DNA of 49,477 bases. Source: a virus (taxonomy: Duplodnaviria > Heunggongvirae > Uroviricota > Caudoviricetes). This document shows positions 1,067 to 46,905 of this stretch, one piece after another. The stretch lies in the IMG/VR virus record IMGVR_UViG_2703718798_000005; one strand, written 5' to 3'. The notes beneath the pieces are model-generated. The model did not search any database and was not told the origin of the DNA. It saw only the letters and a program-made list of their open reading frames with translations. Within the stretch, counting starts at the first letter, position 1. Each line of letters begins with the position of its first letter. Both the position numbers and the translations under genes were made by a program.

Positions 1067-3172
1067 ATGAGTGAAGGACCAGGCGGGCCACAGGGAGCGA
1101 CCGCAGGCGGTACGCTGGCAATGCGAATGCTGTCACAGCAGGCGATGGTCGCCAGCCAGATGAAACGGGCAGCCAACGACAAAGCCATTGCACAGATGTT
1201 GGCATCAAAAAAGTCTGGCTCCCCCGCCGCCAGGCTGGGCGATGAAATTCAGCACAAGAGTTTTTTGGGGGCGCTGGCAGGGGCCGTGCTGGGGGCGATA
1301 GTGACCATCGCAGAAGGTTGCCTGATTATGGCCGCCTGTGCCACCGGCCCTTATGCGCTGGTTCTGGTGCCTGCGCTGATGTATGCCAGCTATAAGGCGA
1401 GTGATTATGTGGAGGAGAAACAGAACCAGCTTGAATCATGGATAAACAGCTTTTGTGACACGGACGGCGCCATCAATACCGGTTCTGAAAACGTAAAAAT
1501 TAACGGAAAGCCAGCAGCCCGTGCAGCCGTCACCCTTCCCCCTCCTCCCCCACCTGGAGCAATACCTGAAGTCCCACAGGGGGAACCCTCATGGGGTGAT
1601 ATTGCCACTGACCTGCTTGAATCGGCAGCGGAAAAAGCAGTACCACTGGCGAAGGCCTGGGGGAACGCTGTTATCACCCTGACGGACAGCAATGCCAGTT
1701 TTATGGATCGCGTCAGTGCAGGCGCATCGCTTCTGTTTCCCAGCGGCCCGGTATTAATGGAATTTGCCACGATGGTGGGCGGGCGTGGCGAAATCAAAAA
1801 AGATGTGGATTTCCCGGAAGCCGGTGAGGACACGGCGCTCTGCGACAAGGAGAACAAACCACCGAGGATAGCCCAGGGCAGCAGCAACGTCTTTATCAAC
1901 AATCAGCCTGCCGCGCGCCAGGGGGACAAACTGGAGTGCAGTGCGGCGATCGTGGAAGGTTCGCCGGACGTCTTTATTGGGGGTGAGCAGGTCACCTATC
2001 TGGATATCCAGCCGGAGTTCCCGCCATGGCAGAGAATGATCCTGGGAGGAATAACGATAGCCAGCTATCTTCTGCCGCCAGCAGGACTGCTGGGAAAACT
2101 GGGGAATCTGGCGAAACTGGGCAAACTGGGAAACCTGCTGGGGAAAAGCGGAAAGCTGCTGGGCGCAAAACTCGGCGCGTTGCTGGGGAAAACAGGTAAG
2201 TCGTTAAAAAGTATTGCCAATAAAGTCATCAGATGGGTAACAGATCCTGTCGATCCGGTAACCGGCGCGTACTGCGACGAACGTACCGACTTCACCCTGG
2301 GCCAGACCCTCCCCCTCTCCTTCACCCGTTTCCACAGTTCGGTACTGCCACTGCATGGCCTGACGGGCGTGGGCTGGAGTGACTCCTGGAGCGAATACGC
2401 CTGGGTGCGTGAACAGGGAAACCGGGTGGATATCATCAGCCTGGGAGCCACGCTGAACTTCGCCTTCGACGGTGAAAGTGATACGGCGGTTAACCCGTAT
2501 CACGCCCAGTACATTCTGCGCCGCCGTGATGATTATCTGGAGCTGTTCGACAGGGATGCACTGAGCAGCCGCTTCTTTTATGACGCCTTTCCGGGAATGC
2601 GTCTGCGCCACCCGGTGACTGACGATACCAGCGATGACCGCCTGGCACACAGCCCCGCAGACCGGATGTACATGCTGGGCGGGATGAGCGACACCGCCAG
2701 CAACCGCATCACGTTTGAGCGCGACAGCCAGTACCGGATCACGGGTGTCAGTCACACCGACGGGATCCGGCTTAAACTGACGTACCACGCCAGCGGCTAC
2801 CTGAAAGCCATTCACCGCACGGATAACGGCATACAGACGCTGGCGACCTACGAACAGGATGCGCGGGGGCGGCTGACAGAAGCGGATGCGCGGCTGGACT
2901 ACCACCTGTTTTATGAGTACGACGCTGCGGACCGGATCATCCGCTGGTCCGATAACGACCAGACGTGGAGCCGTTTCACCTACGATGAACAGGGCCGGTG
3001 CGTGACCGTCACCGGGGCGGAGGGCTATTACAACGCCACGCTGGACTATGGGGACGGCTGCACCACCGTGACGGACGGCAAGGGCGCTCACCGTTATTAC
3101 TATGATCCTGACGGCAATATTCTGCGGGAAGAAGCGCCGGACGGCAGCACCACCACGTATGAATGGGTGTAA
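1067..3172 (+). pseudogene. rhs: rhs T6SS effector, 5' portion (prePAAR motif, TM helices, PAAR domain, first Rhs repeats), truncated by prophage insertion
   Basis: 701 aa ORF: AARLGDEIQH prePAAR-type motif, hydrophobic helices, PAAR-like segment (NVFINNQPAARQGDKLECSAAIVEGSPDVFIGG), YDxxGR-type repeats; stops two codons into the prophage left end; reading frame continues at about 42661. Confidence 0.8.
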
Positions 3173-3439: not shown

Positions 3440-3994
3440 TTACGCGCTGGTCTTTTTATAGGTTACATTGAAGTGATCAACCTTAGTCTTACAAAACTCG
3501 CAAATCTCTCTAATCTGTTCATCAGATAAATCATTTAAGCTTAAGGCTAGTGCTCTACGTTGACCGTGTAAGCTATGTAATTCCTGAATATCATTATCTA
3601 AAAGTATGGTTAAAAAATCTGCGCCTTTGCGGCCTAATTTCCTAGATAATTCATCAAGTTCTGTTGGTTCTAGAGAGCTCCATATAGCGCTAATCGTCTG
3701 GTAATCTCGTTCATCTGAAGACGCAATTGTCGGCCGAGTACTTTCTTGTGGCTGTATTGTTTTCGTGCCCAATATGAGCCATTCCAACGATACGTTTTCT
3801 ACCTTGCAAATATTGCTAACTACTTTTAGGCCAGGTGTGGTCCCTTTCTCAAAGTAGTTATTCAATGTTGAGTATGACAACCCCCAATCGATAGCTGCTT
3901 GCCGCATACTTCTGCTGCCGATTAGCTGCCTGATCCTGTCCTGGATACTTTCTTTTCCCTCTTCGACAAAAGAAAAATCTTGTTCCTGTCTCAT
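3440..3994 (-). CDS. Prophage repressor (Mu c-like), putative
   Basis: 184 aa leftward ORF at the left end, divergent from ner; HTH-like segment (LSYSTLNNYFEKG); positional equivalence to the Mu repressor. Confidence 0.55.
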   Translation of the reverse strand: MRQEQDFSFVEEGKESIQDRIRQLIGSRSMRQAAIDWGLSYSTLNNYFEKGTTPGLKVVSNICKVENVSLEWLILGTKTIQPQESTRPTIASSDERDYQTISAIWSSLEPTELDELSRKLGRKGADFLTILLDNDIQELHSLHGQRRALALSLNDLSDEQIREICEFCKTKVDHFNVTYKKTSA

Positions 3995-4170
3995 GTTTTT
4001 TTCTTTTCCTTATATCGTATTGAATTAAAAAGAGTTTTCTACTTATAGATTACAGTGACAATAAAATAGAAAAGAAAGCTTGAAATTTTCTTTTCGTAGG
4101 CCAATAATCTACTAAACTTGATAACAAAATTTAGTTATCAAATTTCGTAACTTTTTAGGATAGATGAATC
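3995..4170. promoter_or_regulatory. Divergent repressor/early promoter-operator region
   Basis: AT-rich 176 bp between divergent repressor and ner genes; palindrome TTGATAAC-N8-GTTATCAA at about 4118-4141. Confidence 0.4.
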
Positions 4171-4401
4171 ATGGCGAGAAATGAAGTTAAGCCTGATTGG
4201 CATCCTCAAAGAATCTTGGGGGAAGTCAGAGCCAGAGAAGGAAGTATGAGGGCGCTGGCCCGTAAAGCTGGTGTAGGCCAGAACAACCTGTATAACGCGG
4301 TATACCGCCATGTTCCCAAGTATGAGGGAATTATTGCGGAATGCCTGGGTGTTCCACCCGAGGAGATTTGGCCCAGCCGCTACATTCGTAAGGTCGCGTA
4401 A
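4171..4401 (+). CDS. ner: Ner-like DNA-binding early regulator
   Basis: 76 aa; DWHPQRI ... IWPSRY pattern recalled from Mu Ner-family proteins; first gene of the rightward early operon. Confidence 0.75.
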   Translation: MARNEVKPDWHPQRILGEVRAREGSMRALARKAGVGQNNLYNAVYRHVPKYEGIIAECLGVPPEEIWPSRYIRKVA

Positions 4402-4403
4402 TT

Positions 4404-6491
4404 ATGTTTGCTTCAGTTAAAGAGCTGGTTGGATTACCGGGAATGCCGGGAACGGAGCAAGGCGTCCGCTATTCAATCAGGAAGTATGCAACCAGCGAAA
4501 CCAGCAGACGCCGCCAGGAAGGCACTAAAGGTTTTGAATACAGCATCGACTGTTTACCTGAAGTGACGCAGCAGGCATTACGTGAACGCTACGCCCTGCA
4601 ACTGATGACGCAAAAAGCCGACGAATCACCGGCTCCGGTGGTGACAAAGGCCAGACGCTCGCCTGCAGTGGTTGATGCGGTGGAGGCATATCGCGGATCA
4701 CCACAACTGATGGTCGAACGCCTTAATGCCCTGACTGAAAACCAGCGCCAGGTGGCTGATGCACGAATCGCGATCGTCAGCGAAGTGATGAAAGTCGCGC
4801 AACAACCCGGTTTCAGCTGCGCGAAGGCTATCCGGTTTATCGTTGACAACCTGGCACGTTCGCAACTGGACGAGCGCATTGTGGCAATGGTTGAGACGGC
4901 GAACGCCAAAAAGGGAAACAGCCGCGCGTTGAGTGAAATCACGCTGAAACGCTGGATTGCAGCCTTTAACAAGGCGCAGAACGCCGCCGAACGCCTGCTT
5001 TTGCTGGCACCGGGTAAGCGCCAGGAAATAAAAGCCGAAGATATTAACTGGCTGCCCGAGTTTCTGGCGCAGTATCGCCAGTCAAACGGTCGACCAATGA
5101 CCGAGGCTTACGAGGATTTTGTCGCTGAATGGCAGCACCGGCACGCTGATGAGCCTTATATGCTCGATATCATGCCCTCTTATGACACCATTCGCCGCGC
5201 AATGAAGAAACTGCCGGAAGTGGTGAAACAGAAAGGCCGGGTGACCGGCAGTGAATACCGTCAGCTTGAGGGATTCACGCGCCGCGACTGGTCCAGAATG
5301 CCGGTGAATTATGTCTGGATTGGTGACGGTCACGGCATGAAGCTGAAATGCGCGCACCCGGTTCACGGGCGGCCATTTGCACCGGAAGTAACCTTTGTTA
5401 TCGATGGCGGCACGCGCTTTGTGGTGGGCTGGAGCCTTGACCTGGCTGAAAATGTTTTCGCCGTAGCGGGTGCCATACAGCACGGCATTCGCCATCACGG
5501 CAAACCGTTTCTGTATTACTCGGATAACGGTTCCGGGGAAACCGCCGACATCCTGGATAAAGAAGTTGTGGGGATCCTGCCGCGACTGGGGATTAATCAC
5601 CCAACCGGGATTGCCGGTAATCCGCAGGGGCGAGGCATTATCGAACGGCTTAACCGCACATTACCGATGCGCATAGCCCGTAAATACCGCACCTATTTCG
5701 GGAAAGGTGCAGATCGCGAGACGTTACGCAAAACCAACCGCGATTTACGCTCGGCATTCACTGCCCTGCAACAGGACAAACGGCTGAACGCCCGGCAGCA
5801 GTCAGCGATGCGTGATTTACCGTCCTGGTCTGAACTGATTGATGCCATTCGTGATGGTGTTGAGTGGTACAACAACCGGCCGCACGATGAATTACCCATG
5901 AAGCCGAACGGTAAACATTACAGCCCGGCGGAGTTCAGAAAAAAACGCCTGGCGGAAGAGGACACGGAAATTGAATGGCTGTCCGATGTTGAGCTGCGGG
6001 ATATGTTCCGGCCGATGGTGAAGCGCCCTGTAAGACGCTGTGAAATACGCTGGCTGAATAATATTTACTACGCGCCGGAGCTGCGTGACGAGCATGGCCG
6101 CAAGGTGCTTATCAGCTATGACATTCATGATGCTGAGCGAATTACCGTACGCAGACTGGATGGCAGCGTGATTTGCGAGGCGGTATGGGACGGCAATAAA
6201 CGCGAAGCCTTCCCGGTCAGCGCGGAATACTACAAACAGCAGCAACGCCTTAAAGGCATGCGTAAACGCGCAGAGGAAAAAATCCGTGATGCCGAGGATG
6301 AGGTGGTCAACGTGCTGGAGCACAAACCGCAGGAGCCCTGGCTGGAAAACATCTATCGCCCGGTAGGTAATACGGTGGCCGTTCAGCAACCTGCCGTTGA
6401 TGATGAACCTGATGAAGAATACGAGCGTAATTTCCAGCGGGGATTGCAGCTGCTGGAAGCGAAATTAAAAGAAAATGACCCGCTGGCCTGA
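4404..6491 (+). CDS. Mu-type DDE transposase (MuA-like)
   Basis: 695 aa; candidate DDE triad in WIGDGHGMK, YYSDNGSGE and RGIIERLNRT contexts; follows ner as in Mu. Confidence 0.9.
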   Translation: MFASVKELVGLPGMPGTEQGVRYSIRKYATSETSRRRQEGTKGFEYSIDCLPEVTQQALRERYALQLMTQKADESPAPVVTKARRSPAVVDAVEAYRGSPQLMVERLNALTENQRQVADARIAIVSEVMKVAQQPGFSCAKAIRFIVDNLARSQLDERIVAMVETANAKKGNSRALSEITLKRWIAAFNKAQNAAERLLLLAPGKRQEIKAEDINWLPEFLAQYRQSNGRPMTEAYEDFVAEWQHRHADEPYMLDIMPSYDTIRRAMKKLPEVVKQKGRVTGSEYRQLEGFTRRDWSRMPVNYVWIGDGHGMKLKCAHPVHGRPFAPEVTFVIDGGTRFVVGWSLDLAENVFAVAGAIQHGIRHHGKPFLYYSDNGSGETADILDKEVVGILPRLGINHPTGIAGNPQGRGIIERLNRTLPMRIARKYRTYFGKGADRETLRKTNRDLRSAFTALQQDKRLNARQQSAMRDLPSWSELIDAIRDGVEWYNNRPHDELPMKPNGKHYSPAEFRKKRLAEEDTEIEWLSDVELRDMFRPMVKRPVRRCEIRWLNNIYYAPELRDEHGRKVLISYDIHDAERITVRRLDGSVICEAVWDGNKREAFPVSAEYYKQQQRLKGMRKRAEEKIRDAEDEVVNVLEHKPQEPWLENIYRPVGNTVAVQQPAVDDEPDEEYERNFQRGLQLLEAKLKENDPLA

Positions 6492-6566: not shown

Positions 6567-7499
6567 ATGACCGATATTAACGATGTAATCAAGACCATTG
6601 ATGAACTTATTGATGGCGGCGTACTGACACAGTATGCCATCGCCAGAGAGGCGGGAATTTCCGACGGCACATTATCGGCTTTCCGTAAGGGAAAATATAA
6701 AGGCGATAACGCTGCTGTGGCTGCTTCCCTGCGTTCCTGGTATGAGAACTGGAATAAACAAAGCGCACTGCCGGAACCGCCGCAGTTTGTGGAAACGCAG
6801 ACAGTCCAGGAGCTGCGCGCGCTGTTTCAGGCGGTTCGCCTGATGGGCTGTATTAACGTCATTGTGGGCGTGCCGGGTGTGGGTAAAACGGCCACCGCCC
6901 GTAATTACTGCCAGGAGCAACCAAACACCTGGATGATTACCCTGTCACCCGCGCACTCCAGCGTCACGGAGTGTTTGCTGGAGCTGGCCGATGCGCTGGG
7001 GATTGATTACACCCGCGCGAACAAAGGGGCATTATCCCGCGCCATCCGCCGCCGTCTGATGGGAACGCGTGGACTGGTGATTGTGGATGAGGCGGATCAT
7101 CTTGGTATTGACGGTCTGGAGCAACTCCGGGCAATTCAGGACGCCACGGGGATCGGGATGGTGCTTATTGGTAACCCGCGCGGACTGTTTAAAGGTGGAC
7201 GCCGCGCCTTTGATGATTTATCGCGCCTGTTCAGCCGTCTTGCCCGTACAAAACAACTTCGCAAGGCCAAAAAGGCAGATGTGCTGGCCATTGCCAGGGC
7301 ATGGGGTATCAGTGGTGAGGCAGAGCTGGTCGTGATGCAGGCTATCGCTGAAAAGCCCGGTGCGTTACGTGTTCTTACACATACGCTTAACCAGGCGTGG
7401 CTCACAGCCAGCGGTGAAGGCGCGGCGCTGACAGAAAAACATATTAATGCGGCCTTTAAAGAGGTTTATACCAACCCTGAATTACTCTCACAGGTGTGA
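6567..7499 (+). CDS. MuB-like ATP-dependent target DNA activator
   Basis: 310 aa; Walker A GVPGVGKT; directly downstream of the transposase. Confidence 0.85.
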   Translation: MTDINDVIKTIDELIDGGVLTQYAIAREAGISDGTLSAFRKGKYKGDNAAVAASLRSWYENWNKQSALPEPPQFVETQTVQELRALFQAVRLMGCINVIVGVPGVGKTATARNYCQEQPNTWMITLSPAHSSVTECLLELADALGIDYTRANKGALSRAIRRRLMGTRGLVIVDEADHLGIDGLEQLRAIQDATGIGMVLIGNPRGLFKGGRRAFDDLSRLFSRLARTKQLRKAKKADVLAIARAWGISGEAELVVMQAIAEKPGALRVLTHTLNQAWLTASGEGAALTEKHINAAFKEVYTNPELLSQV

Positions 7500-7723
7500 T
7501 TATGGCTGCATTTAATATTCCTGATATTTACGGACGCTTTTACCTGGTGAATGTCGATAACGTGAAAGTGATTTCACTGGCCGAAAATAAAGAATGTGGT
7601 GATTTACTTTTTGAATTTAATGACCGCACACGAATGGTGATATCTGCCGGACTTGATCGCGAAGGTGCGACAGACGTTTACAGCGGAATATGCCGTTCTG
7701 TTGGTGCAAAACAAGTCAGATAA
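7496..7723 (+). CDS. Small early protein, unknown function (occupies the position of Mu kil)
   Basis: 75 aa ORF translationally coupled to B; function assigned by position only. Confidence 0.4.
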   Translation: MIMAAFNIPDIYGRFYLVNVDNVKVISLAENKECGDLLFEFNDRTRMVISAGLDREGATDVYSGICRSVGAKQVR

Positions 7724-7735
7724 ACGAGGTGTTAT

Positions 7736-8155
7736 ATGAATACGCAGATACAGCAGGAAATCAATGTTCTCCACAGTTTTCGTGCGTTTAACAACAATGA
7801 CTGTGAGGTTCGTGATTATATCTTTGAATTGATGAACGGTGACGGTGTGTGTTTTCTGTTTATCGACCTGTATCTATGGTATGCAGACCAGCAGTGTGAA
7901 TCTGTCCGGCAGCGTTTTTATGTTGGATACTTTAACCATCATGTCTGGGAAAGCCTGCGCTTTGGTTTTCTGATCCAGGGGGATTATCGCCAGGGGGGGC
8001 GACACGGTTACTCCATCCTTCGGGCAATCATGCGTGGCGAAACCCGAAAAATTCCGGGGATGGGTGAGGTTGATCGGAGCCTCCTGCTGGAACTGGCTGC
8101 ATCGCGCATGAATCCATTACTGATACAACCGGAGTTCACCTATGAATTTGTTTGA
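7736..8155 (+). CDS. Hypothetical early protein
   Basis: 139 aa ORF with RBS (GAGG) 7 nt upstream; no recognisable motif. Confidence 0.4.
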   Translation: MNTQIQQEINVLHSFRAFNNNDCEVRDYIFELMNGDGVCFLFIDLYLWYADQQCESVRQRFYVGYFNHHVWESLRFGFLIQGDYRQGGRHGYSILRAIMRGETRKIPGMGEVDRSLLLELAASRMNPLLIQPEFTYEFV

Positions 8156-8372
8156 TTCACTGAATAACGCCCGTCGCCTGACCGAGCTTGCCGGTGCGGT
8201 ACTGGAGCGCAGTAAACGCTACCCGCAACGCTTTGCACTGAAAACCACGCCGCCGGTAAATAAGGTTCAGGGGGGGGGAAAGGAAATTGAAATCACCGTT
8301 AAGACCAACGGCCTGCGCCGCCGTGTGAAGGCCACCCGCATCAGCGGTTGCACGGTTTACTGGGAAGTATGA
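8142..8372 (+). CDS. Hypothetical early protein
   Basis: 76 aa basic ORF overlapping the preceding stop. Confidence 0.35.
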   Translation: MNLFDSLNNARRLTELAGAVLERSKRYPQRFALKTTPPVNKVQGGGKEIEITVKTNGLRRRVKATRISGCTVYWEV

Positions 8373-8446
8373 AGTTACTTCATGGTTCGGCTCTGTCATC
8401 AGGTCAGGCGCCGGGTCAGTTATCCGAACAAAACGAGGACCAGAGG

Positions 8447-8722
8447 ATGAGTAAAGTTGTTCGCATTATTTTCGAATACAGGGAGAACGTTATCCGTAAA
8501 AACGCTGATGGAAGCACGCACATGGGGGTAAGTCTGGATATACGTTCAACCGGAATAGCAAAGCAGAAGGATGGTAGCCCCGCCATGATTTTTGGGGTGG
8601 TTATGCTCGCAGAAAGCAGAAACTTCGCAGAGCTTGTGGCAATGAAAGCCAGTGCATTCATGAAAGACAGGGGTATGGCTTCCGGGGTTATTAACGGTAA
8701 TGAATTTAATCAGCAGGGGTAA
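8447..8722 (+). CDS. Hypothetical early protein, paralog A of a tandem pair
   Basis: Start moved to the internal ATG at 8447 (RBS GAGGAC); MSKVVRIIFEYRENV resembles the next ORF's MSKVRVIFEFEHVS. Confidence 0.4.
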   Translation: MSKVVRIIFEYRENVIRKNADGSTHMGVSLDIRSTGIAKQKDGSPAMIFGVVMLAESRNFAELVAMKASAFMKDRGMASGVINGNEFNQQG

Positions 8723-8726
8723 TTCC

Positions 8727-9020
8727 ATGAGCAAAGTACGCGTTATTTTTGAATTTGAGCATGTTTCGCATGACGAAAAGCTGGCAGGCAATGACTGTGT
8801 TGAAGTGCATGAAAAGATTGGAGTGGATGTGAAAACAGAACGTGATACGGAGAACAGCCCGACGTCACTCTGTGACGTTTATGCAAGTATTCTCCAGTAT
8901 CACAGTCCTGCAATTATTCAGCTTCTCTCAGCGGAATTTCAGGCATCTGTACAGGCTTTTGGGGCGGATGCCATCATTAAACGCCACCGTGTGCATAAAG
9001 CATCAGGCGCACTGCAATAA
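8727..9020 (+). CDS. Hypothetical early protein, paralog B of a tandem pair
   Basis: Start moved to the ATG at 8727; N-terminal similarity to the preceding ORF. Confidence 0.4.
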   Translation: MSKVRVIFEFEHVSHDEKLAGNDCVEVHEKIGVDVKTERDTENSPTSLCDVYASILQYHSPAIIQLLSAEFQASVQAFGADAIIKRHRVHKASGALQ

Positions 9021-9030
9021 GGAAAACAAA

Positions 9031-9561
9031 ATGGTTAAACGTGTTACAAAATTAAAGGCCGCAGCCGAGGCCGCACCACAGACCCGCGAAGAGGTCAGCC
9101 GCGATATCCGCACCCTGGGCGATATTCAGCGAGAGGCGCTGCGCCTGGAAACGGCAATGAATGATGAAGTGGCAGAAATCACCGCCCGTTATACGCCGCA
9201 GATTGAAAACCTTAAAAAAGAAATCAAAGTGCTTTTTAAGGGGATTCATGACTGGTGTAAAACCAACCGCAATGAGCTGACGAACGGCGGCGAAACCAAA
9301 ACTGCCAATCTGACCACCGGAACGGTGTCATGGCGGCTGGGAAATCCATCATGCAGCGTCAGTCGTGATGTGGAAGGTGTGATTGAAATGCTGCGTCGTA
9401 TGGGGCTTGAGCGCTTCATCCGCACGAAAGAGGAAGTGAATAAGCAAGCTGTCCTGGCGGAGCCGGATGCGGTGAAAGGGGTTGCTGGTATTAAGGTGAA
9501 TAAAGGTGCTGAAAGTTTTCATGTCGAGCCTTTTGAACAGGACGCCGGACTGAATAAATAA
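9031..9561 (+). CDS. gam: Gam-like host-nuclease inhibitor (DNA end-binding)
   Basis: Start at internal ATG 9031; DIRTLGDIQREALRLETAMNDEVAEI and ELTNGGETKTANLTTGTVSWR match the Mu Gam family as recalled. Confidence 0.75.
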   Translation: MVKRVTKLKAAAEAAPQTREEVSRDIRTLGDIQREALRLETAMNDEVAEITARYTPQIENLKKEIKVLFKGIHDWCKTNRNELTNGGETKTANLTTGTVSWRLGNPSCSVSRDVEGVIEMLRRMGLERFIRTKEEVNKQAVLAEPDAVKGVAGIKVNKGAESFHVEPFEQDAGLNK

Positions 9562-9658
9562 CACCGCATTAAATCTTTAAATATCACTTCGTTTTAATTA
9601 TGGCGCTCGCGTCAGGGGACTGCCTGCGCCTGTAAACTGAAAATAAGGAACAGGAAAT

Positions 9659-10201
9659 ATGGCATATTTTTATTTCAAATTAGACCGTGTACAGACAAAT
9701 AAATATTTCACCAAATATCAACAGACTGTTTTACCGCTACGCAACAGTATTCTTCGGGCATTACTGAAAAATACAGGCGCTGCCGGATTGCGCTTAAAGC
9801 CGTTCGCCATGGACGTAATCAGTGAGTTTTATTTTTCTGGTTCTCTGCCTGCGGGCTGGCGTAAGCGCGATGATGTGGCTTTTATCGGGGGCGGACCGTG
9901 CTTTATTGCCAGACCTGATGAGTCATGCCCTGAAGGTCCGGCGATTGCCGCAATGGTTGAAGCCGCTGAACGCGAGTTAAGAAAGCGTCCTGATTTCCTT
10001 GTCTGGCTCTGTGAAAAGCTGGGGGTAATGAGAATCCCCTCCATGTTTAACACGGACTCCTGGTGGACCCCGTCACTCTCCCGTGATGCCCTGTGCGTGG
10101 TGTTTAAAGTAGGCGCTTATGGCAGGGAAATAAACGGGTGTATTCCTGAAGAATGCCAGGAAATTAAACATTCTGAATATGTGGCGCTGACGGAGGAATA
10201 A
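9659..10201 (+). CDS. Hypothetical early/middle protein
   Basis: 180 aa ORF, RBS AAGGAACAGG upstream. Confidence 0.45.
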   Translation: MAYFYFKLDRVQTNKYFTKYQQTVLPLRNSILRALLKNTGAAGLRLKPFAMDVISEFYFSGSLPAGWRKRDDVAFIGGGPCFIARPDESCPEGPAIAAMVEAAERELRKRPDFLVWLCEKLGVMRIPSMFNTDSWWTPSLSRDALCVVFKVGAYGREINGCIPEECQEIKHSEYVALTEE

Positions 10202-10204
10202 TTC

Positions 10205-10738
10205 ATGATTGATGCAAAAGTACTTGAAGGGGTTAAAAACTGGCTGAGTATTTACGGGCGTCTGACCTGCAGCATTCTGGCTGAAAAAATGAATATGCCG
10301 CCATCCTCGATGGTTTATTTTCTGCGTGATGCGGTCGATGCCGGGGTGCTGACGGAATGTAACGGTTTTTATGATATTCCGCGTCCCCGCCCGGTGCAGC
10401 CGGTTCGTCGCAAATGCAGCCAGGAAGGTGCGGCTGATGATGTTCAGTGGTGCAGCTTCAGAAAATCCCTGCCGTGGATTGAGGGGCATGATATTCCGTC
10501 AATGGCGTGGGAATTTGCTCAGGGCGTTCTGACCTGTGAAACCGTTTATGTGGTGGCTGAAGTTGATGAGCAGGCCATGAAAGAAGGTGTGCCCCAGTTT
10601 GTTATGGCGTATATCGACATCCGTCTGGGCGTCATTATCTGCGGTTTAAGCGGCTGGAATATCACCTCGCGCGTTCTGCGTTACCTGATTGTTGACCGGA
10701 CGGCCGCGCCTGCCGGGATATCTGCGGAGGTGGCGTAA
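10205..10738 (+). CDS. Hypothetical early/middle protein
   Basis: 177 aa ORF, tightly packed with neighbours. Confidence 0.45.
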   Translation: MIDAKVLEGVKNWLSIYGRLTCSILAEKMNMPPSSMVYFLRDAVDAGVLTECNGFYDIPRPRPVQPVRRKCSQEGAADDVQWCSFRKSLPWIEGHDIPSMAWEFAQGVLTCETVYVVAEVDEQAMKEGVPQFVMAYIDIRLGVIICGLSGWNITSRVLRYLIVDRTAAPAGISAEVA

Positions 10739-11253
10739 TGTTCTTTAAAACATCAAACCCTTCCGCGCTGGCCGCGTGGCAAAAATATCAGCAGGACTGC
10801 CAGAAAGTTAAGGATGAGGCAAAACGCCTTGAGGCCGTGCTGAATGTTGCGTGCCGGTCGGTATTTGTATCCGGTATCAGTGGCTTTTGTTTTAAAGGGC
10901 TGCGCTTTATGGATGACAAATATCCTTTTCATCGCGACTTATGGCGAAAACCGACTGCGTCGAATGGCTGGAGCTGCACACCGCGCACATCACGTATTCC
11001 CAAAGCCCTGCGCGTTGCCTCTGACGAACTTAACAGTCTGTGGCGTGAATATTCGCCCGTCACGTATGCCAGAACCGATGCCCTGTTGTTCTGGCTGGGC
11101 ATTGACTTTTCAGCAATATTGCATGGTCCCGTGAAGTGGTTCTGCGTTGACGATGTTATTTACCTTCAGTGCGAAGATGATTCCGCAAAACGGAAAATGA
11201 CCGAAATTCTGTCTGATGAGTTTTATGCTGCTGAAAAGCGAGTCAGGGGGTGA
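10738..11253 (+). CDS. Hypothetical early/middle protein
   Basis: 171 aa ORF, start overlaps the preceding stop. Confidence 0.45.
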   Translation: MFFKTSNPSALAAWQKYQQDCQKVKDEAKRLEAVLNVACRSVFVSGISGFCFKGLRFMDDKYPFHRDLWRKPTASNGWSCTPRTSRIPKALRVASDELNSLWREYSPVTYARTDALLFWLGIDFSAILHGPVKWFCVDDVIYLQCEDDSAKRKMTEILSDEFYAAEKRVRG

Positions 11254-11256
11254 TGT

Positions 11257-11808
11257 ATGATGATTTTACAACCCATGGGGCGAAAAGGCCGTGCACCCGC
11301 TCATGTCCGTGCGTGGACACCTGAAGAAGATGCACTGCTGATTGCGCTTTATCCATCCACCCCGGTTAAGGATATTGCTGTCAGGATAAAAAGAAGTTTC
11401 TGGGGTGTACATCACCGGATTGTTTTATTACGCGGTACTTACCCGGAGTTGCTCAAATGCAAACGTCCAAGATTTAAACATGATGAAGATAAATTTATCC
11501 GAAAAAATGCCAGAACAATGACCGGTAAGCAAATAGGAGAATATCTGGGGCGAGACCGGGATTCTGTCCACAATCGGGCGCGATATATTGGCGTAAGCAT
11601 GAAAAAATACGGAGAATTGCTGCCCTTCACCCGTATACCTGATGATGATGTTCGTCTTATTCGTGAATTACGGGATGCTGAATCACCACGACGTCTTACC
11701 TTCCGGGAAATAGGCGAGAAATTTGAATTATCCGAGAGTACGGTGAATTTTATTTATCACCATCGCCGGACTGCTGAAGATGTTGTATTACGGGAGTTAA
11801 TGCCATGA
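11257..11808 (+). CDS. Hypothetical protein with Myb/SANT-like and HTH-like segments (possible DNA-binding)
   Basis: 183 aa; WTPEEDALLIALY and LSESTVNFIYHHRR segments suggest DNA binding; inference only. Confidence 0.4.
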   Translation: MMILQPMGRKGRAPAHVRAWTPEEDALLIALYPSTPVKDIAVRIKRSFWGVHHRIVLLRGTYPELLKCKRPRFKHDEDKFIRKNARTMTGKQIGEYLGRDRDSVHNRARYIGVSMKKYGELLPFTRIPDDDVRLIRELRDAESPRRLTFREIGEKFELSESTVNFIYHHRRTAEDVVLRELMP

Positions 11809-12116
11809 TAACGACATTATTTGTTGAATCAGACGAGCCTCTGGTATGTGCCGCCGGAATGTCGGTTTGTGGCGGAACGCTGACCGGTGTTTATTTCGGG
11901 GATTTGCGCGGTTATCCCTGGCATTCACTGGATGACGCATTTCCGCCTGATATGGAGGCTGTCGTGCTGATTGTTCAGTATGGTGACCAACAGGAACTGC
12001 GCATCGGCCATATGGGGTATGAAGGCTTTTTTATTGATGAAGAAACCGGAGCCTGCCTTGAAGATGAGGACGGACAGGTGACGCACTGGTGCCATATTTC
12101 AGCTTTACCGGAATGA
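11805..12116 (+). CDS. Hypothetical protein
   Basis: 103 aa acidic ORF, overlapping start. Confidence 0.4.
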   Translation: MITTLFVESDEPLVCAAGMSVCGGTLTGVYFGDLRGYPWHSLDDAFPPDMEAVVLIVQYGDQQELRIGHMGYEGFFIDEETGACLEDEDGQVTHWCHISALPE

Positions 12117-12481
12117 CGGGAGGTGAATGCGTGAGAAGTTATATTGATAATGAAAAACTGAAGACAATCAGCGACTGTCTTAGCTTGCTGGCAAAAATAA
12201 AAGAAACCATTGAAGAGATTAAATTTCAGCTTGAATACGAACCCTGTGGCGATGATACATGGCGTAACTCTGCCAGAAAAGCACTGGCTGTCTTTCAGAA
12301 ACAACGCCGGACTGTTGAATACCGCCTTGCTGTATTGCGCCAGGAGGAAAAGGAAAGAAATATAAGACGTCATGAACTCGTTAATGATTTTCTTGTTCGT
12401 GAATTAAAGGAGCGTGTGCCGGAGTCGGTATTTTTTGAGTGTGAGGCTGTTGCCCGTAGCAAAGCACTGGAAACTGATTAA
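12113..12481 (+). CDS. Hypothetical coiled-coil protein (start uncertain)
   Basis: ORF track starts at 12089; internal ATG at 12113 or GTG at about 12131 follows GGGAGG. Confidence 0.4.
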   Translation: MTGGECVRSYIDNEKLKTISDCLSLLAKIKETIEEIKFQLEYEPCGDDTWRNSARKALAVFQKQRRTVEYRLAVLRQEEKERNIRRHELVNDFLVRELKERVPESVFFECEAVARSKALETD

Positions 12482-12493
12482 ACAGGCAGGTGA

Positions 12494-12829
12494 ATGATGA
12501 GTATTGAATTAAGATCGTCTTATGAATATCGTAAAATTCTCATCGCCGGAGGCATGAAACCGGAAGATGCAGAAAAAATCGTTTCTTTTATGGATAAGGA
12601 ATGTGATAAGCGGGATGTGTCAGAAATTATTATGGATGACATGATTCTGCATTCAGCCGTAGCGTTAAGCCCGTTATGGATTGTGCATTCTCTTGCTGAA
12701 ATTGCCAAAGGCACCGATAAACAGGCAGCTGTTGCTGCCCTTCAGACGCTTAATGAAATGCGTATATCTCCACGCCCGACATTAATACATATGATTCTCT
12801 CCAGTATGGAGGATAAAGCAAATGAATAG
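12494..12829 (+). CDS. Hypothetical protein
   Basis: 111 aa ORF. Confidence 0.4.
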   Translation: MMSIELRSSYEYRKILIAGGMKPEDAEKIVSFMDKECDKRDVSEIIMDDMILHSAVALSPLWIVHSLAEIAKGTDKQAAVAALQTLNEMRISPRPTLIHMILSSMEDKANE

Positions 12830-13019
12830 TCTACCCGCTGGATGGGCGCGGCCACTAATGGCCAGGAAGCATCATTTTTTTAAAACAGGCGAAAATATCA
12901 GTATATGTGGACGGTGGTTATATCTGGCTCATAATCGCGAGCCGGATACATTTGAAAGCCCTGATGACTGTGCCGAATGCCGCAGAAGAGTGAATAAGGA
13001 GAAAGATAATGGACAATAG
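12822..13019 (+). CDS. Small hypothetical protein with Cys pairs
   Basis: 65 aa; ICGRW ... CAEC could form a small zinc-binding site; weak. Confidence 0.3.
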   Translation: MNSLPAGWARPLMARKHHFFKTGENISICGRWLYLAHNREPDTFESPDDCAECRRRVNKEKDNGQ

Positions 13020-13305
13020 TTCTCTGTTGTTCTGGTGCTTATATATCACATCCTTTTTCGGCGCATTTGTTATTACCCGGTGGTTATGTCGAAAAATCAT
13101 CTGCTTTTTTGATAAAAGACATCCGGTTGAACGGGCGGCTGATGCGCTCATTCAGCAGGCCATTGTGTTATATAGCGGTGAATTTTTCTGCCGGATAACA
13201 ACCAGAGATGGCTGGCACATAATGATTATTCCACCAACACACCATGCCCGGTGGGATGAGGCAGAAAAGGCTTTCCATGTCCGTAAAAAGGTAAATACGG
13301 TATGA
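13009..13305 (+). CDS. Small hypothetical protein, predicted membrane helix
   Basis: 98 aa; hydrophobic N-terminal segment LLFWCLYITSFFGAFVI. Confidence 0.3.
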   Translation: MDNSSLLFWCLYITSFFGAFVITRWLCRKIICFFDKRHPVERAADALIQQAIVLYSGEFFCRITTRDGWHIMIIPPTHHARWDEAEKAFHVRKKVNTV

Positions 13306-13811
13306 GAGGAAAACTGATATCCGCCATTCATGTGGCAAAGCGCGAGCTTGCCCTGGATGATGAGACTTATACATCCGCGCTGCTGGCAGCCACCGGCAAA
13401 ACCAGCTGCCGGGATATGTCACCGGATGAGTTATCCCGCGTGCTGGATGTTTTCAAAAAACGCGGTTTTAAAGTGCGTCAGAACCCGGTTAACCGGGCCT
13501 TAAAACCGGGTACGGTGACCGCCAAAATTCGCGCCATCTGGAAGGTGATGCACCGGCAGGGCTTTATCACCGATGGTGCGGAAACCGCCCTTAACCGCTG
13601 GGTGAAATCGCAGACGGCCGCGCAGAACGGCAGCGAAGGTGTGGCAAACTGGCAGTGGCTGGAGCAACACCCCGCCCTGGCCTCAGATGTGCTGGAGCGT
13701 CTCAAGCGATGGCACCGCCGCAAAATGCTGGCCGCGATGGGAATGCCCGAACGCACGCTGATGGGGTATGACGCCGTTTGCAGGCAGTATGAAAAATCAC
13801 TTCCCCGTTAA
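13302..13811 (+). CDS. GemA/gp16-like protein (DUF1018 family), putative
   Basis: 169 aa; N-terminal LISAIHVAKRELALDDETYTSALLAATGKTSCRDMSPDEL pattern recalled from Mu gp16 homologs; last gene before a terminator. Confidence 0.55.
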   Translation: MRGKLISAIHVAKRELALDDETYTSALLAATGKTSCRDMSPDELSRVLDVFKKRGFKVRQNPVNRALKPGTVTAKIRAIWKVMHRQGFITDGAETALNRWVKSQTAAQNGSEGVANWQWLEQHPALASDVLERLKRWHRRKMLAAMGMPERTLMGYDAVCRQYEKSLPR

Positions 13812-13814
13812 CTC

Positions 13815-13848
13815 CAAATCCCGCCACAACGCGGGATTTTTATTTTAA
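13815..13848 (+). terminator. Rho-independent terminator after the early operon
   Basis: ATCCCGC-CACAAC-GCGGGAT hairpin followed by TTTTTATTTT. Confidence 0.55.
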
Positions 13849-13880: not shown

Positions 13881-14306
13881 ATGGCAGAAACTCAGATGAG
13901 CATGTTTGGTGGTGACAGTGAGCAACTGCACGCCCTTATCGACCGCCTTGATGACATCCCTGATGATGTTCTCAAAAAGAACTGGCCGCGGACCCTGTCA
14001 GAACTGGTTGAAGTCACCGGCGCAGAACTTCAGCGTCAGGGGATTGAGCCGGTACTGGCCGGTAAACTGGCACGCAAGGTGGCTGCGGCTCAGGCAGCCT
14101 ATATGGGCGGACGGGGTTATTACCTGCCGGTCGGGGAATCTCTCTTTGCCGAGCTGCGAAACAATGAGATATTTTCGCGCTGGGACCGGGGCGAGAAAAT
14201 TGAATCCCTTCGCCGCCATTACCGGATGTCAGAAACCCAGATTTATACCGTCATACGTGAACAGCGCCGTCTGCATCTGGCAAGAACGCAACCGCCACTT
14301 TTCTGA
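13881..14306 (+). CDS. Mor/C-family transcriptional activator (middle/late gene activator)
   Basis: 141 aa; C-terminal HTH-like LRRHYRMSETQIYTVIREQRR; lies between the early terminator and the lysis genes as in Mu. Confidence 0.6.
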   Translation: MAETQMSMFGGDSEQLHALIDRLDDIPDDVLKKNWPRTLSELVEVTGAELQRQGIEPVLAGKLARKVAAAQAAYMGGRGYYLPVGESLFAELRNNEIFSRWDRGEKIESLRRHYRMSETQIYTVIREQRRLHLARTQPPLF

Positions 14307-41640: not shown

Positions 41641-41841
41641 ATGTATCGAAACATACGGTGCCGACACTGCAATAAGCTACTGGCACGGGCCAGTTTCAGT
41701 TATCTGGAAGTAAAATGTCCGCGCTGTAAAACCCTCAATCAAATCACATCTCCGAGCGCCACAGAGCACCCCACATACACAAGGAAATCCTGTCGTGGGG
41801 AACAGAAAGCAAGTCACATCCCGAATCATCAGCACGCCTGA
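41641..41841 (+). CDS. com: Com-like zinc-finger translational activator of mom
   Basis: Start moved to ATG 41641; [14 protein letters not shown]...[11 protein letters not shown] four-Cys pattern like Mu Com; overlaps the mom start. Confidence 0.75.
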
Positions 41842-42532
41842 ACTTATTCGCTATAACGACAATATCGTTGGTTATGGCTCCCGTGAGTTGCGGGTTGAGA
41901 CAATAAGTTGCTGGCTGGCCAGACTGGTCATCGTCAATAAACATTACAGCCACCGTTTCGTAAATAACTCCTACCTTCATCTGGGCATATTTTCAGAACG
42001 GGAACTTGTTGGCGTAATGCAATGGGGTTACGCCCTTAACCCAAACAGTGGTGCACGCGTCGTAACGGGTACGCAGAACCGAGAATATATGGAGCTTAAC
42101 CGGCTATGGCTGCATGACTGTATGCCGAGAAACTCCGAATCAAGGGCAATCAGTTACGCGCTCAAGCTAATCAGGCAGCTTTATCCGCAGGTACAGTGGG
42201 TTCAGTCGTTTGCAGATGAGCGTTGTGGCTGTCTTGGTGTCGTGTATCAGGCAAGCAATTTTGATTATGTAGGCAGCCATGAATCAATATTCTATGAACT
42301 TGATGGCGAGTGGTATCACGAGATTTGCAGGAATGCCATTAAACGAGGCGGACAACGAGGTGAACATCTGAGGGCTAATATTGACAGAGCCAATGTTCAT
42401 AAGTTCCGACAGTTTCGTTACATCCGGTTTCTGAACAAGAGGGCCAAAAAACGCCTCAACACAAAGCTATTCAAAGTCCAGCCTTACCCAAAACCACAAA
42501 CAGTTAAAACTGGTTTGAAAGAGAGTGAATGA
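41795..42532 (+). CDS. mom: Mom-like DNA modification protein
   Basis: 245 aa; last gene at the right end and overlapped by com, as in Mu; start codon uncertain. Confidence 0.75.
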
Positions 42533-45879: not shown

Positions 45880-46905
45880 CGAAAGAGGCCACATGGGGAA
45901 TACTGCTCCCCTCACTGGTACGGGAGTACCGTTACGACAGCGCGGGTAACGTATCAGGCGTCACCAGCCGGGAAGATTACGGACGGGAAACACAGCGGGA
46001 GTACCGGCTTGACCGGAACGGCCAGGTCACGGCGGTGACAGCCTCAGGCACCGGGCTGGGCTATGGCGAAGGCGATGAGTCCTATGGCTATGACAGTTGT
46101 GGCTACCTGAAGGCGCAGTCTGCGGGCGGGCACCGGATAAGTGAAGAGACTGACCAGTATGCCGGAGGCCACCGGCTGAAACAGGCCGGAAACACGCAGT
46201 ATGACTATGACGCCGCAGGCCGGATGGTCAGCCGCACCAGACACCGTGACGGCTATCGCCCGGAAACAGAGCGGTTCCGGTGGGACAGCCGGGACCAGCT
46301 GACCGGGTATTGCAGCGCACAGGGTGAGCAGTGGGAATACCGCCACGACGCCAGCGGCAGACGGACGGAAAAACGCTGTGACCGGAAGAAAATCCGTTTT
46401 ACGTACCTGTGGGACGGCGACAGTATTGCGGAAATCCGGGAATACCGCGATGATGAACTGTACAGCGTACGGCACCTGGTGTTTAACGGCTTTGAGCTGA
46501 TAAGCCAGCAGTGCAGCCGGGTACGGCAGCCGCACCCGTCCGTGGCCCCGCAGTGGGTGACACGAACGAATCATGCGGTAAGCGACCTGACGGGCCGCCC
46601 GCTGATGCTCTTTAACAGTGAAGGCAAGACGGTCTGGCGACCGGGACAGACCAGCCTGTGGGGGCTGGCACTCAGCCTGCCCGCAGACACAGACTACCCG
46701 GACCCGCGCGGGGAGCTGGACGCGGAAGCCGACCCCGGCCTGCTGTATGCAGGACAGTGGCAGGATGCAGAATCGGGGTTGTGCTATAACCGGTTCCGAT
46801 ATTACGAGCCGGAAACCGGGATGTACCTGGTGAGTGATCCACTGGGGTTGCTGGGGGGTAAGCAGACTTACCGGTATGTGCCGAATCCACTGGGGTATAT
46901 TGATC
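45880..46905 (+). repeat. Duplicated rhs core segment (orphan copy of about 43945-44930)
   Basis: Near-identical DNA to the main rhs core; translations match over long stretches (ASGTGLGYGEGDESYGYDSCGYLKAQSAG...). Confidence 0.85.

What the first reader, a model, noticed from the sequence alone, without database searches (positions are those of the whole stretch)
7496..13305. Block of about fifteen small early ORFs without recognisable domains (candidate anti-defence or host-takeover module)
Between B and the GemA-like gene lie about fifteen tightly packed, often translationally coupled ORFs of 65-185 aa. Only Gam (9031-9561) is recognisable by motif. In Mu the equivalent semi-essential early region encodes host-interaction functions (Kil, Gam and others), and this region varies among Mu-like phages. 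Proteins with a Myb/SANT-like segment (11257-11808) and a possible small Cys-pair site (12822-13019) are present. This is the most likely place in the window for uncharacterised inhibitors of host defence or host replication.
Basis: inference. Interest (0 to 1): 0.55.

Follow-up and report, generated by a model that had tools for sequence, protein, structure and literature searches.

The report
Mu-like prophage accessory early gene block
This is the well-known "semi-essential early" accessory region of a Mu-type transposable prophage of E. coli: fifteen real, tightly packed small genes, two with a known role (Kil, Gam); no known anti-defence family matched any of the other thirteen.

Summary
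There are 15 same-strand ORFs (65-183 aa) between B and GemA. They cover 5613 of 5810 nt, 13 of 16 junctions are at most 14 nt, and 6 of these overlap. All but one hit a PHROG family, and most show purifying selection.

The block is the SEE region of a Mu-like prophage found at 90-97% identity in 232 of 5426 complete E. coli genomes, where these genes are annotated as hypothetical.

More is recognisable than Gam:
- o03 is a Kil-family protein.
- o08 and o09 are orthologues of Mu gp11 and gp12.
- o10 is a Mu gp9-like protein that looks like three helix-turn-helix repeats.
- o02 is weakly gp8-like.
- o04 and o05 are tandem paralogues.
- o07 (DUF5420-like) is a remote paralogue of o09.
- o14 has a conserved His/Cys3 site.
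- o15 has one predicted membrane helix.

No ORF matches a known anti-defence or defence family. The gp12 model has no solved structural relative.

The region is strongly mosaic, with 17 computed gene orders among 23 prophages whose B is at least 98% identical. That fits an accessory host-interaction module but proves no function.

A conserved non-coding hairpin element lies after gam, in Mu as well. Interest is modest.

The parts
7502..7723 (+). o01, 73 aa, first gene after B; unknown function (phrog_3375)
   Evidence: PHROG E 7e-45. Present in 38 of 54 related loci but not in Mu. pN/pS 0.31. Two alleles among close relatives, about 97% and about 75% identity.
7736..8155 (+). o02, 139 aa, rare and fast-evolving cassette gene, weakly Mu gp8-like
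   Evidence: No PHROG, Pfam or NCBIfam hit. BLASTP to Mu gp8 gives E 4e-4 on the N-terminal half, and both proteins are 139 aa. It clusters with gp8 through intermediates. The segment 7724-8446 (o02, o03 and the gap after it) is at least 80% covered in only 13 of 231 E. coli genomes that match it; the rest match only its kil part. One of 50,697 phage records has it. pN/pS 0.51. It is fused in frame to kil in NZ_AP045172.
8142..8372 (+). o03, 76 aa basic protein (pI 10.7), Kil family
   Evidence: phrog_2679 'Kil protein for bacterial septation inhibition', E 7e-38. 32% identity to the C-terminal half of Mu Kil, E 5e-5. It is the most conserved gene of the region, present in 50 of 54 loci. pN/pS 0.13-0.17.
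8373..8446 (+). 74-nt non-coding gap where most relatives carry an extra 93-aa gene
   Evidence: In NZ_CP040316 and most close relatives a 93-aa ORF (WP_153021281, labelled 'host nuclease inhibitor protein') lies between kil and o04.
8447..8722 (+). o04, 91 aa, tandem paralogue of o05 (phrog_4107)
   Evidence: PHROG E 2e-51. hhalign of the o04 family against the o05 family: probability 89%, E 2e-6, 77 columns.
8727..9020 (+). o05, 97 aa, tandem paralogue of o04 (phrog_2230); possibly Mu gp7-like
   Evidence: PHROG E 2e-37. hhalign to the Mu gp7 family: E 4e-5 with o04 and o05 merged, E 0.004 with o05 alone. Two alleles, 93% and 57% identity. pN/pS 0.54.
9031..9561 (+). Gam, 176 aa, Ku-like protein that binds double-strand DNA ends and inhibits host nucleases
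   Evidence: Pfam Phage_Mu_Gam E 2.6e-39. 55% identity to Mu Gam over the full length.
9585..9648 (+). Conserved non-coding hairpin element in the gam-o07 gap
   Evidence: Covariance model R1 finds one copy per locus, always on the + strand, in 33 of 47 sources, including Mu at 6351-6415. 91.9% of cells are paired, two pairs show compensatory changes, and G-U pairs fall on the + strand. There is no Rfam match. The fold energy z-score is only -0.34.
9659..10201 (+). o07, 180 aa, DUF5420-like; remote paralogue of o09 (gp12)
   Evidence: phrog_2260 E 6e-74. 36% identity, E 2e-22, to a Salmonella 'DUF5420 family protein'. hhalign against the broad gp12 family: probability 85%, E 6e-6, 153 columns end to end. 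In close relatives the slot holds this gene, a 24%-identical allele, or nothing.
10205..10738 (+). o08, 177 aa, orthologue of Mu gp11; possible N-terminal winged helix plus the Gp11_C domain
   Evidence: 67% identity to Mu gp11. Pfam Gp11_C E 8e-40. The N-terminus aligns with MarR and AsnC winged helix-turn-helix regions only at E 0.4-1.7.
10738..11253 (+). o09, 171 aa, orthologue of Mu gp12; start overlaps the o08 stop by 1 nt
11257..11808 (+). o10, 183 aa basic protein (pI 10.1) that looks like three helix-turn-helix repeats; Mu gp9-like
   Evidence: phrog_323 'transcriptional regulator' E 1e-58. Repeats 2 and 3 match the two repeats of Mu gp9 (z 12.5 and 4.8). Similarity among the three o10 repeats themselves is weak (z 0.8-2.7), so the three-repeat layout rests mainly on reading the sequence. 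Pfam HTH and Myb hits are all below cutoff. RefSeq labels it 'AsnC family protein'.
11805..12116 (+). o11, 103 aa, very acidic (pI 4.05, net charge -17), narrow family
   Evidence: phrog_6925 E 2e-52. Only 16 clusters at 90% identity, in E. coli and Salmonella. pN/pS 0.14. DUF551 scores only E 0.2. The AF2 model is poor, pLDDT 52.
12131..12481 (+). o12, 116 aa; function unknown (phrog_6158)
   Evidence: PHROG E 2e-57. The start is set by the PGAP call and the GGGAGG motif. pN/pS 0.15. Present in 12 of 54 loci. PDB sequence matches are non-significant (best E 0.045).
12494..12829 (+). o13, 111 aa, restricted to Mu-like phages (phrog_1988)
   Evidence: PHROG E 1e-44. tblastn hits only SfMu and Yersinia Mu-like phages. 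pN/pS 0.17.
12822..13019 (+). o14, 65 aa, small protein with a conserved His/Cys3 putative zinc site
   Evidence: H18, C29, C50 and C53 are invariant against PB1 ORF85 and a Sa179lw protein. Homologues occur in 197 phage records, 167 of them from Pseudomonas phages (those listed are PB1-like).
13009..13305 (+). o15, 98 aa, one predicted N-terminal membrane helix; overlaps o14 and gemA
   Evidence: Maximum 19-residue hydropathy is 1.82 at residue 5. phrog_17269 E 2e-32. Alleles of 100% and 51% identity. pN/pS 0.16.

Best explanation
[quoted passage not shown] It forms the distal part of the early lytic operon that starts upstream of ner-A-B.

After repressor inactivation, the genes would be transcribed as one long message and translated in series through short or overlapping junctions.

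The block has two layers.

1. A conserved backbone shared with Mu and with Citrobacter- and Edwardsiella-type relatives:
- Kil arrests or kills the host cell.
- Gam binds double-strand DNA ends and shields phage DNA from RecBCD-type nucleases.
- gp11 (o08) is flanked by two remote paralogues, o07 (DUF5420-like) and gp12 (o09).
- o10 is a gp9-like multi-HTH DNA-binding protein.

2. Interchangeable small cassettes that recombination swaps between near-identical prophages: o01, o02, o04/o05 and o11-o15.

Most likely the backbone supports replicative transposition and control of host DNA metabolism, and the cassettes are dispensable host-interaction or fitness genes.

Shown here: gene content, homologies, packing, selection and mosaicism.

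Inferred, not shown: co-transcription, translational coupling, and every biochemical role except those carried over from Mu Kil and Gam.
For: Context:
- The order is c repressor (3440-3994, minus strand), ner, A, B, the block, GemA, Mor, lysozyme.
- A promoter-like site lies at 4080-4108. The strongest intrinsic-terminator-like hairpin on the + strand comes only after gemA, at 13816-13839.

Homology:
- Gam: Pfam E 3e-39.
- Kil: PHROG E 7e-38.
- o08 and o09 are 67% and 53% identical to Mu gp11 and gp12; o10 matches gp9 and o02 matches gp8.

Mosaicism:
- 85 protein families were found in 54 B-to-GemA regions.
- There are 17 computed gene orders among 23 loci whose B is at least 98% identical, although a few differ only through ORF-calling effects or frameshifts.
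- Several genes show bimodal allele identities.

Backbone:
- Kil is in 50, gp11 in 42, gp12 in 38 and o07 in 36 of the 54 loci.
- o07 and gp12 are remote paralogues: hhalign probability 85%, E 6e-6.

Gam as counter-defence: a Mu-Gam-like protein is reported to block SIR2+HerA and DUF4297+HerA and to trigger retron Ec86 (bioRxiv 10.1101/2024.04.14.589459).

The block occurs in 232 of 5426 complete E. coli genomes.
Against: - No expression data were available, so co-transcription from the early promoter is an inference.
- Thirteen of the 15 proteins have no experimentally known relative.
- The Kil assignment rests on family membership, and identity to Mu Kil is only 32% over 40 residues.
- The split into 'backbone' and 'cassette' comes from 54 loci that were all recruited through B homology.
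- The o07/gp12 paralogy was not significant with narrower profiles (P 0.01-0.13).
Confidence: 0.8

Rival explanations
1. The block is mainly a counter-defence island. Most of the unknown small proteins, especially the swappable ones (o02, o11-o15, o01, o04/o05), would be direct inhibitors of host immune systems such as restriction, CRISPR or abortive infection.
For: - The genes are small, early and tightly packed.
- Cassette turnover is very high between near-identical prophages.
- o02 and o05 evolve fast (pN/pS 0.51 and 0.54).
- o11 is very acidic (pI 4.05, net charge -17), as DNA-mimic inhibitors are.
- o14 homologues sit in clusters of small ORFs in unrelated phages, including PB1 and Sa179lw.
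- Gam-like proteins do counter some defences.
Against: - No hit to any known anti-defence family in Pfam or PHROGs, nor any annotation in NCBIfam.
- The alternative cassettes in relatives are also only DUFs: DUF3164, DUF7694, DUF7168/DUF2786.
- o11, o12, o13 and o15 are under strong purifying selection (pN/pS 0.14-0.17).
- The structure prediction for o11 failed (pLDDT 52).
- Position and flux also fit other accessory roles.
Confidence: 0.3
2. The cassette genes are prophage-encoded protection for the lysogen, such as superinfection exclusion or anti-phage defence, rather than tools of the lytic cycle. For example, the o14/o15 pair (a zinc-site protein and a membrane protein) could act at the envelope.
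For: - o15 has a predicted membrane helix and overlaps o14.
- A 61-aa, largely hydrophobic ORF (family F17) occupies a nearby slot in relatives.
- Weak promoter-like sites lie at 12509, 12908 and 13195.
Against: - No PADLOC hit for any ORF.
- The genes lie inside the repressor-controlled early operon.
- Promoter-like sites are fewer than chance expects (6 found against 14.1 expected).
- Packing implies expression with the lytic genes.
Confidence: 0.08
3. Some of the ORFs, chiefly o02 and perhaps o05, are decaying or non-functional remnants rather than working genes.
For: - o02 has no PHROG family.
- Its pN/pS of 0.51 is only modestly below that of the other frames (0.88 and 0.98).
- PGAP left it uncalled in NZ_AP045172, where it is fused to kil.
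- It is absent from most relatives.
Against: - o02 is kept as an intact 139-aa frame in at least 10 loci at 69-87% identity.
- It has a Shine-Dalgarno motif.
- It has the same length as Mu gp8 and a matching N-terminus.
- RefSeq annotates it in other genomes.
Confidence: 0.1

Closest known systems
Semi-essential early (SEE) region of Escherichia phage Mu (AF083977, genes kil/gp5 to gp15, 4.3-8.2 kb)
   Same: - Same position between B and gemA-mor, same strand, and the same tight packing.
- Shares Kil, Gam, gp11 and gp12.
- Also shares gp9-like, gp8-like and possibly gp7-like genes.
- Shares the conserved hairpin element downstream of gam.
   Different: - Gene order differs: in Mu, kil is the first gene after B, whereas here o01 and o02 come first.
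- Mu lacks o01, o07, o11, o12, o13, o14 and o15.
- The window lacks Mu gp6, gp13, gp14 and gp15.
- o10 looks like three HTH repeats against two in gp9.
- Identities are low (32-67%).
Mu-like prophages of E. coli O157 and other STEC strains, and the Mu-like inserts in Stx phages (for example NZ_CP040316; LC727881)
   Same: 90-97% nucleotide identity over 93-100% of the block, with the same backbone and mostly the same cassettes.
   Different: Most of them lack o02 and carry an extra 93-aa gene between kil and o04. The segment 7724-8446 (o02, o03 and the gap after it) is at least 80% covered in only 13 of the 231 genomes that match it.
Clustered counter-defence and accessory gene regions of phages (for example anti-CRISPR loci of Pseudomonas Mu-like phages, or the early gene clusters of virulent phages). 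The comparison rests on general knowledge.
   Same: Small genes, high turnover between close relatives, and early expression implied by position.
   Different: None of the ORFs belongs to a described anti-defence family, and no marker gene of such loci was found. Activity is untested.

Membership tests
Mu SEE region | Lies between transposition gene B and gemA/mor on the early-operon strand | tested here: met
   B at 6567-7499, GemA at 13302-13811 (Pfam E 3e-30) and Mor at 13881-14306 (Pfam E 3e-32) are all on the + strand.
Mu SEE region | Contains kil and gam | tested here: met
   Kil: PHROG E 7e-38. Gam: Pfam E 3e-39 and 55% identity to Mu Gam.
Mu SEE region | Dispensable for plaque formation (semi-essential) | not testable with these tools
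   This needs a deletion mutant. Indirect support: many genes are present or absent among close relatives.
Mu Gam / Ku-like end-binding proteins (PF07352) | Full-length match to the family profile above the curated cutoff | tested here: met
   135 bits against a cutoff of 28.3, covering profile positions 1-149 of 149.
Kil (Mu gp5) family | Sequence membership | tested here: met
   phrog_2679 E 7e-38. BLASTP to Mu Kil E 5e-5 over the C-terminal 40 residues. Same single-linkage cluster as Mu Kil.
Kil (Mu gp5) family | Expression kills the host or blocks its division | not testable with these tools
   This needs an expression experiment.
   15.8 and 17 bits against cutoffs of 24.4 and 22.9, with only 13 residues aligned. 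Generic HTH models also score below cutoff. The fold class is plausible but membership is not shown.
Mu gp9-like HTH proteins | Significant similarity to Mu gp9 | tested here: met
   BLASTP E 3e-8 over residues 66-166. Repeat 2 matches gp9 repeat 1 at z 12.5, and repeat 3 matches gp9 repeat 2 at z 4.8.
Zinc-ribbon-like small proteins (o14) | Four conserved metal-ligand residues | tested here: met
   H18, C29, C50 and C53 are invariant across 35-47% identical homologues from PB1 and Sa179lw. Metal binding itself was not tested.
DUF551 (PF04448) for o11 | Pfam match above the gathering score | tested here: not met
   E 0.2, 13 bits against a cutoff of 22, in one of 12 family members.
DUF5420-named proteins for o07 | Homology to a named member | tested here: met
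   36% identity over the full length, E 2e-22, to a Salmonella 'DUF5420 family protein'. No model in the local Pfam copy matched.
Known anti-defence proteins (Ocr, ArdA, KlcA, Acr, Tad, Gad and others, as represented in Pfam and PHROGs) | Sequence match to a described family | tested here: not met
   No such hit for any ORF except the Gam hit to phrog_18351 'host nuclease inhibitor'. No dedicated anti-defence library was available.
Known anti-phage defence systems (PADLOC) | Sequence match to a defence protein model | tested here: not met
   The only hit was a chance-level one, o10 to a homing-endonuclease model at E 0.003. Gam was not scanned.

The most novel reading that the evidence does not exclude
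At least one swappable small protein is a new inhibitor of an E. coli immune system. Candidates are the rare, fast-evolving o02, the very acidic o11, and the o14/o15 pair. Separately, the gp12/DUF5420 superfamily has no solved structural relative and flanks gp11 in two copies. Together with the conserved mRNA hairpin after gam, it could form an undescribed functional unit of Mu-type early development, for example the genetically defined but unassigned 'arm' (amplified replication) function.
Probability: 0.3. Interest if true: 0.6.

Novelty: new member of a known kind. Interest (0 to 1): 0.32.

Why it matters
Mu's SEE region has been known for about forty years. Even so, the curated Mu record still lists gp6-gp9 and gp11-gp15 as hypothetical.

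This analysis turns a vague 'block of small ORFs' into a ranked list for experiments.
- It separates a conserved backbone from a fast-turnover layer. The backbone is Kil, Gam, the o07-gp11-gp12 trio and the gp9-like HTH protein.
- The fast-turnover layer is where counter-defence or host-range genes would be sought first.
- It also adds two small observations about Mu itself: gp12 belongs to a broad family with a second, diverged copy in many relatives, and a conserved hairpin element lies after gam.

None of this changes current understanding unless experiments assign functions.

Tried and rejected
No annotation or no useful result:
- NCBIfam gave nothing for 14 ORFs.
- PADLOC gave nothing meaningful.
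- Rfam found no family in the window or in the gam-o07 gap.
- PDB sequence searches with o08, o10, o02, o12, o13 and with profiles of the o07 and gp11 families gave only non-significant hits.

Structure work:
- The afdb50 library was unavailable.
- The o11 model had pLDDT 52, so its fold search is meaningless.

Hypotheses tested:
- My by-eye idea that o11 is a DUF551 protein got only E 0.2.
- o07/gp12 paralogy was not significant with narrow profiles. The o07 profile hit none of 146 gp12-family representatives. It became significant only with the broad gp12 profile.
- The mini-ORF MALASGDCLRL in the gap was rejected as a peptide. Its frame is not conserved in Mu and the ATG is missing in the Edwardsiella relative.
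- A second copy of the hairpin core at 14033 has 2 mismatches and is compatible with chance.

Literature: searches for DUF5420, for work on the Mu early genes, and for Sp18 found nothing on function.

Context: Pfam scans of the alternative cassettes in relatives returned only DUFs, so guilt by association gave nothing.

Full report
**1. What is there**

The window is an E. coli whole-genome-shotgun contig. One of its proteins, o08, is on record from a contig of exactly 49,477 bp (KYS90323.1).

It carries a Mu-type transposable prophage with this gene order:
- repressor, 3440-3994, minus strand
- ner, 4171-4401
- transposase A, 4404-6491
- B, 6567-7499
- the block under study
- GemA, 13302-13811
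- Mor, 13881-14306
- lysozyme

After start refinement they cover 5613 of 5810 nt. Thirteen of 16 junctions are at most 14 nt, and six of those are overlaps. Only two gaps are longer, at 74 and 97 nt. Shine-Dalgarno-like motifs precede nearly all starts.

The ORFs are real genes:
- Fourteen of the fifteen hit a PHROG family at E 2e-32 or better.
- Against diverged copies, in-frame pN/pS is 0.14-0.33 for most, while the other two frames give about 1 or more.
- o02 (0.51) and o05 (0.54) are the least constrained.

A promoter-like site lies upstream of ner at 4080-4108. The strongest terminator-like hairpin on the + strand comes only after gemA, at 13816-13839. Promoter-like sites inside the block are fewer than chance expects. 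This fits a single early transcript, but that is an inference.

**2. What each gene is**

- Gam is certain: Pfam E 3e-39 and 55% identity to Mu Gam.
- o03 is a Kil-family protein. It hits phrog_2679 at E 7e-38 and is 32% identical to the C-terminal half of Mu Kil. It is the most widespread gene of the region, in 50 of 54 loci.
- o08 and o09 are orthologues of Mu gp11 (67%) and gp12 (53%). As in Mu, the gp11 stop shares its last base with the gp12 start codon.
- o10 is basic (pI 10.1) and looks like three helix-turn-helix repeats.
  - Repeats 2 and 3 match the two repeats of Mu gp9.
  - Similarity among the three o10 repeats themselves is weak (z 0.8-2.7), so the three-repeat layout rests mainly on reading the sequence.
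  - The Myb and other HTH Pfam hits are all below cutoff, so 'Myb/SANT-like' describes the fold class at best.
- o02 is the same length as Mu gp8 (139 aa). It matches gp8's N-terminal half weakly (E 4e-4) and clusters with it through intermediates.
- o04 and o05 are adjacent distant paralogues: hhalign probability 89%, E 2e-6. A link to Mu gp7 is only suggestive.
- o07 is 36% identical to a Salmonella protein named 'DUF5420 family protein'.
- o11 is very acidic (pI 4.05, net charge -17). Its family is confined to E. coli and Salmonella.
- o14 has four invariant ligand-type residues (H18, C29, C50, C53). These are shared with small proteins of the virulent Pseudomonas phage PB1 and an E. coli siphophage. 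Homologues occur in 197 phage records.
- o15 has one predicted N-terminal membrane helix.
- o01, o12 and o13 remain blank. o13 occurs only in Mu-like phages.

**3. Deeper look at the largest unknowns**

An exhaustive HMMER search showed that the gp12 family is much wider than the indexed search suggested. It found 181 clusters at 50% identity. None of 50 sampled members has a Pfam hit in the local library.

With this broad profile, the o07 family aligns end to end with gp12: hhalign probability 85%, E 6e-6, 153 columns. The two share an N-terminal YFK motif and a C-terminal E-I-x-x-S-E-F motif. Narrower profiles had not reached significance, so I treat the paralogy as probable rather than proven.

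The conserved core is therefore o07 (gp12-like), gp11, gp12. Mu has only the last two.

The o11 model failed (pLDDT 52). My idea that o11 is DUF551-like scored only E 0.2.

**4. Variation**

I collected 54 B-to-GemA regions from IMG/VR, GTDB genomes, E. coli genomes and Mu. Their ORFs fall into 85 families.

Among the 23 loci whose B is at least 98% identical to the window's, there are 17 computed gene orders. A few of these differ only through ORF-calling effects or frameshifts.

The variable slots are:
- o02 is present or absent. The segment 7724-8446 (o02, o03 and the gap after it) is at least 80% covered in only 13 of 231 matching E. coli genomes.
- A 93-aa gene lies between kil and o04 in most relatives. 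Here a 74-nt gap takes its place.
- The o07 slot holds o07, a 24%-identical allele, or nothing.
- o01, o04, o05, o10 and o15 each occur as two or more alleles.
- There are several alternative right-end sets. Some relatives carry homologues of Mu gp13 and gp14 in place of o12-o15.

In Citrobacter-type relatives, Gam is replaced by a DUF3164 protein.

**5. Does this make it an anti-defence module?**

Position, small size and cassette flux fit that idea. Gam-like proteins are reported to counter SIR2/HerA-type defences and to trigger retron Ec86 (bioRxiv 10.1101/2024.04.14.589459).

However:
- No other ORF matches a described anti-defence, host-takeover or defence family in Pfam, PHROGs, NCBIfam or PADLOC.
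- The alternative cassettes in relatives are also only DUFs.
- Several cassette genes are under strong purifying selection.
- The biggest unknowns (o07, o08, o09) behave as conserved backbone.

I therefore put the counter-defence reading at about 0.3 for at least one new inhibitor. The plain reading, an SEE region with a conserved backbone plus swappable accessory genes, I put at about 0.8.

**6. Comparison with what is known**

[quoted passage not shown] The current Mu record still calls gp6-gp9 and gp11-gp15 hypothetical.

The block occurs at 90-97% identity in 232 of 5426 complete E. coli genomes and in Mu-like inserts within Stx phages. These ORFs are mostly annotated 'hypothetical protein' there; Gam is named and o10 is sometimes labelled 'AsnC family' or 'DNA-binding protein'.

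This is a new member of a known kind. The uncharacterised status of most of its genes is shared with Mu itself.

**7. A by-product inside the coordinates**

The 97-nt gap after gam holds a conserved element (about 9585-9648) with the near-invariant core CGTCAGGGGACTG inside a GGCGC/GCGCC stem.
- A covariance model finds exactly one copy, on the + strand, in 33 of 47 sources searched. These include Mu at 6351-6415 and the Citrobacter-, Edwardsiella- and Sodalis-type relatives, whatever gene follows.
- 91.9% of cells are paired, two pairs show compensatory changes, and the G-U pairs fall on the + strand.
- It has no T-run, no Rfam match and an unremarkable folding energy.
- The short ORF that overlaps it is not conserved as a peptide.

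Its role is unknown. It could be an mRNA processing or stability signal, the leader of an internal promoter, or a protein-binding site.

**8. Verdict**

This is an ordinary though poorly understood region. Its value is mainly as a prioritised list for experiments.

Noticed in passing
window 9585-9648 (+): A conserved non-coding hairpin element sits downstream of gam. Its core is CGTCAGGGGACTG and its stem is GGCGC/GCGCC. There is one copy per Mu-like prophage, including Mu itself (AF083977 6351-6415). It is not annotated there and has no Rfam match.
   Followed up: partly
window 1067-3172 and 42709-45441: The prophage (about 3.2-42.6 kb) appears to be inserted inside an rhs (YD-repeat toxin) gene. 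The Rhs reading frame stops at the left prophage end and Rhs repeats resume after the right end. They are followed by a small ORF and a second ORF (46035-47306) that repeats the Rhs C-terminal region, with low-GC tips.
   Followed up: no
window 8373-8446; L004 1497-1778: Most close relatives carry a 93-aa gene between kil and o04, labelled 'host nuclease inhibitor protein' in RefSeq (WP_153021281). It has no Pfam hit. It is missing here and tends to alternate with o02 among near-identical prophages.
   Followed up: partly
L003 1741-2376 (NZ_AP045172): In this relative the o02 homologue is fused in frame to kil, giving a 211-aa ORF. PGAP annotated only the kil part.
   Followed up: no
L006, L056-L061, L067, L068 and others: In Citrobacter-type and other Mu-like prophages the Gam slot is taken by a DUF3164 protein (Pfam E 1e-78). 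The hairpin element still follows it in the Enterobacterales relatives, which suggests functional replacement of Gam.
   Followed up: partly
window 41795-42532 (+): The last prophage gene is a 245-aa ORF in the position of Mu mom (DNA modification, a known anti-restriction function). I did not check it with any tool.
   Followed up: no
window 10738-11253; Homologues of o09 carry a precomputed Pfam accession, PF26885, that is absent from the local Pfam copy. The 'DUF5420' name on an o07 relative likewise has no matching model in the local library.
   Followed up: no
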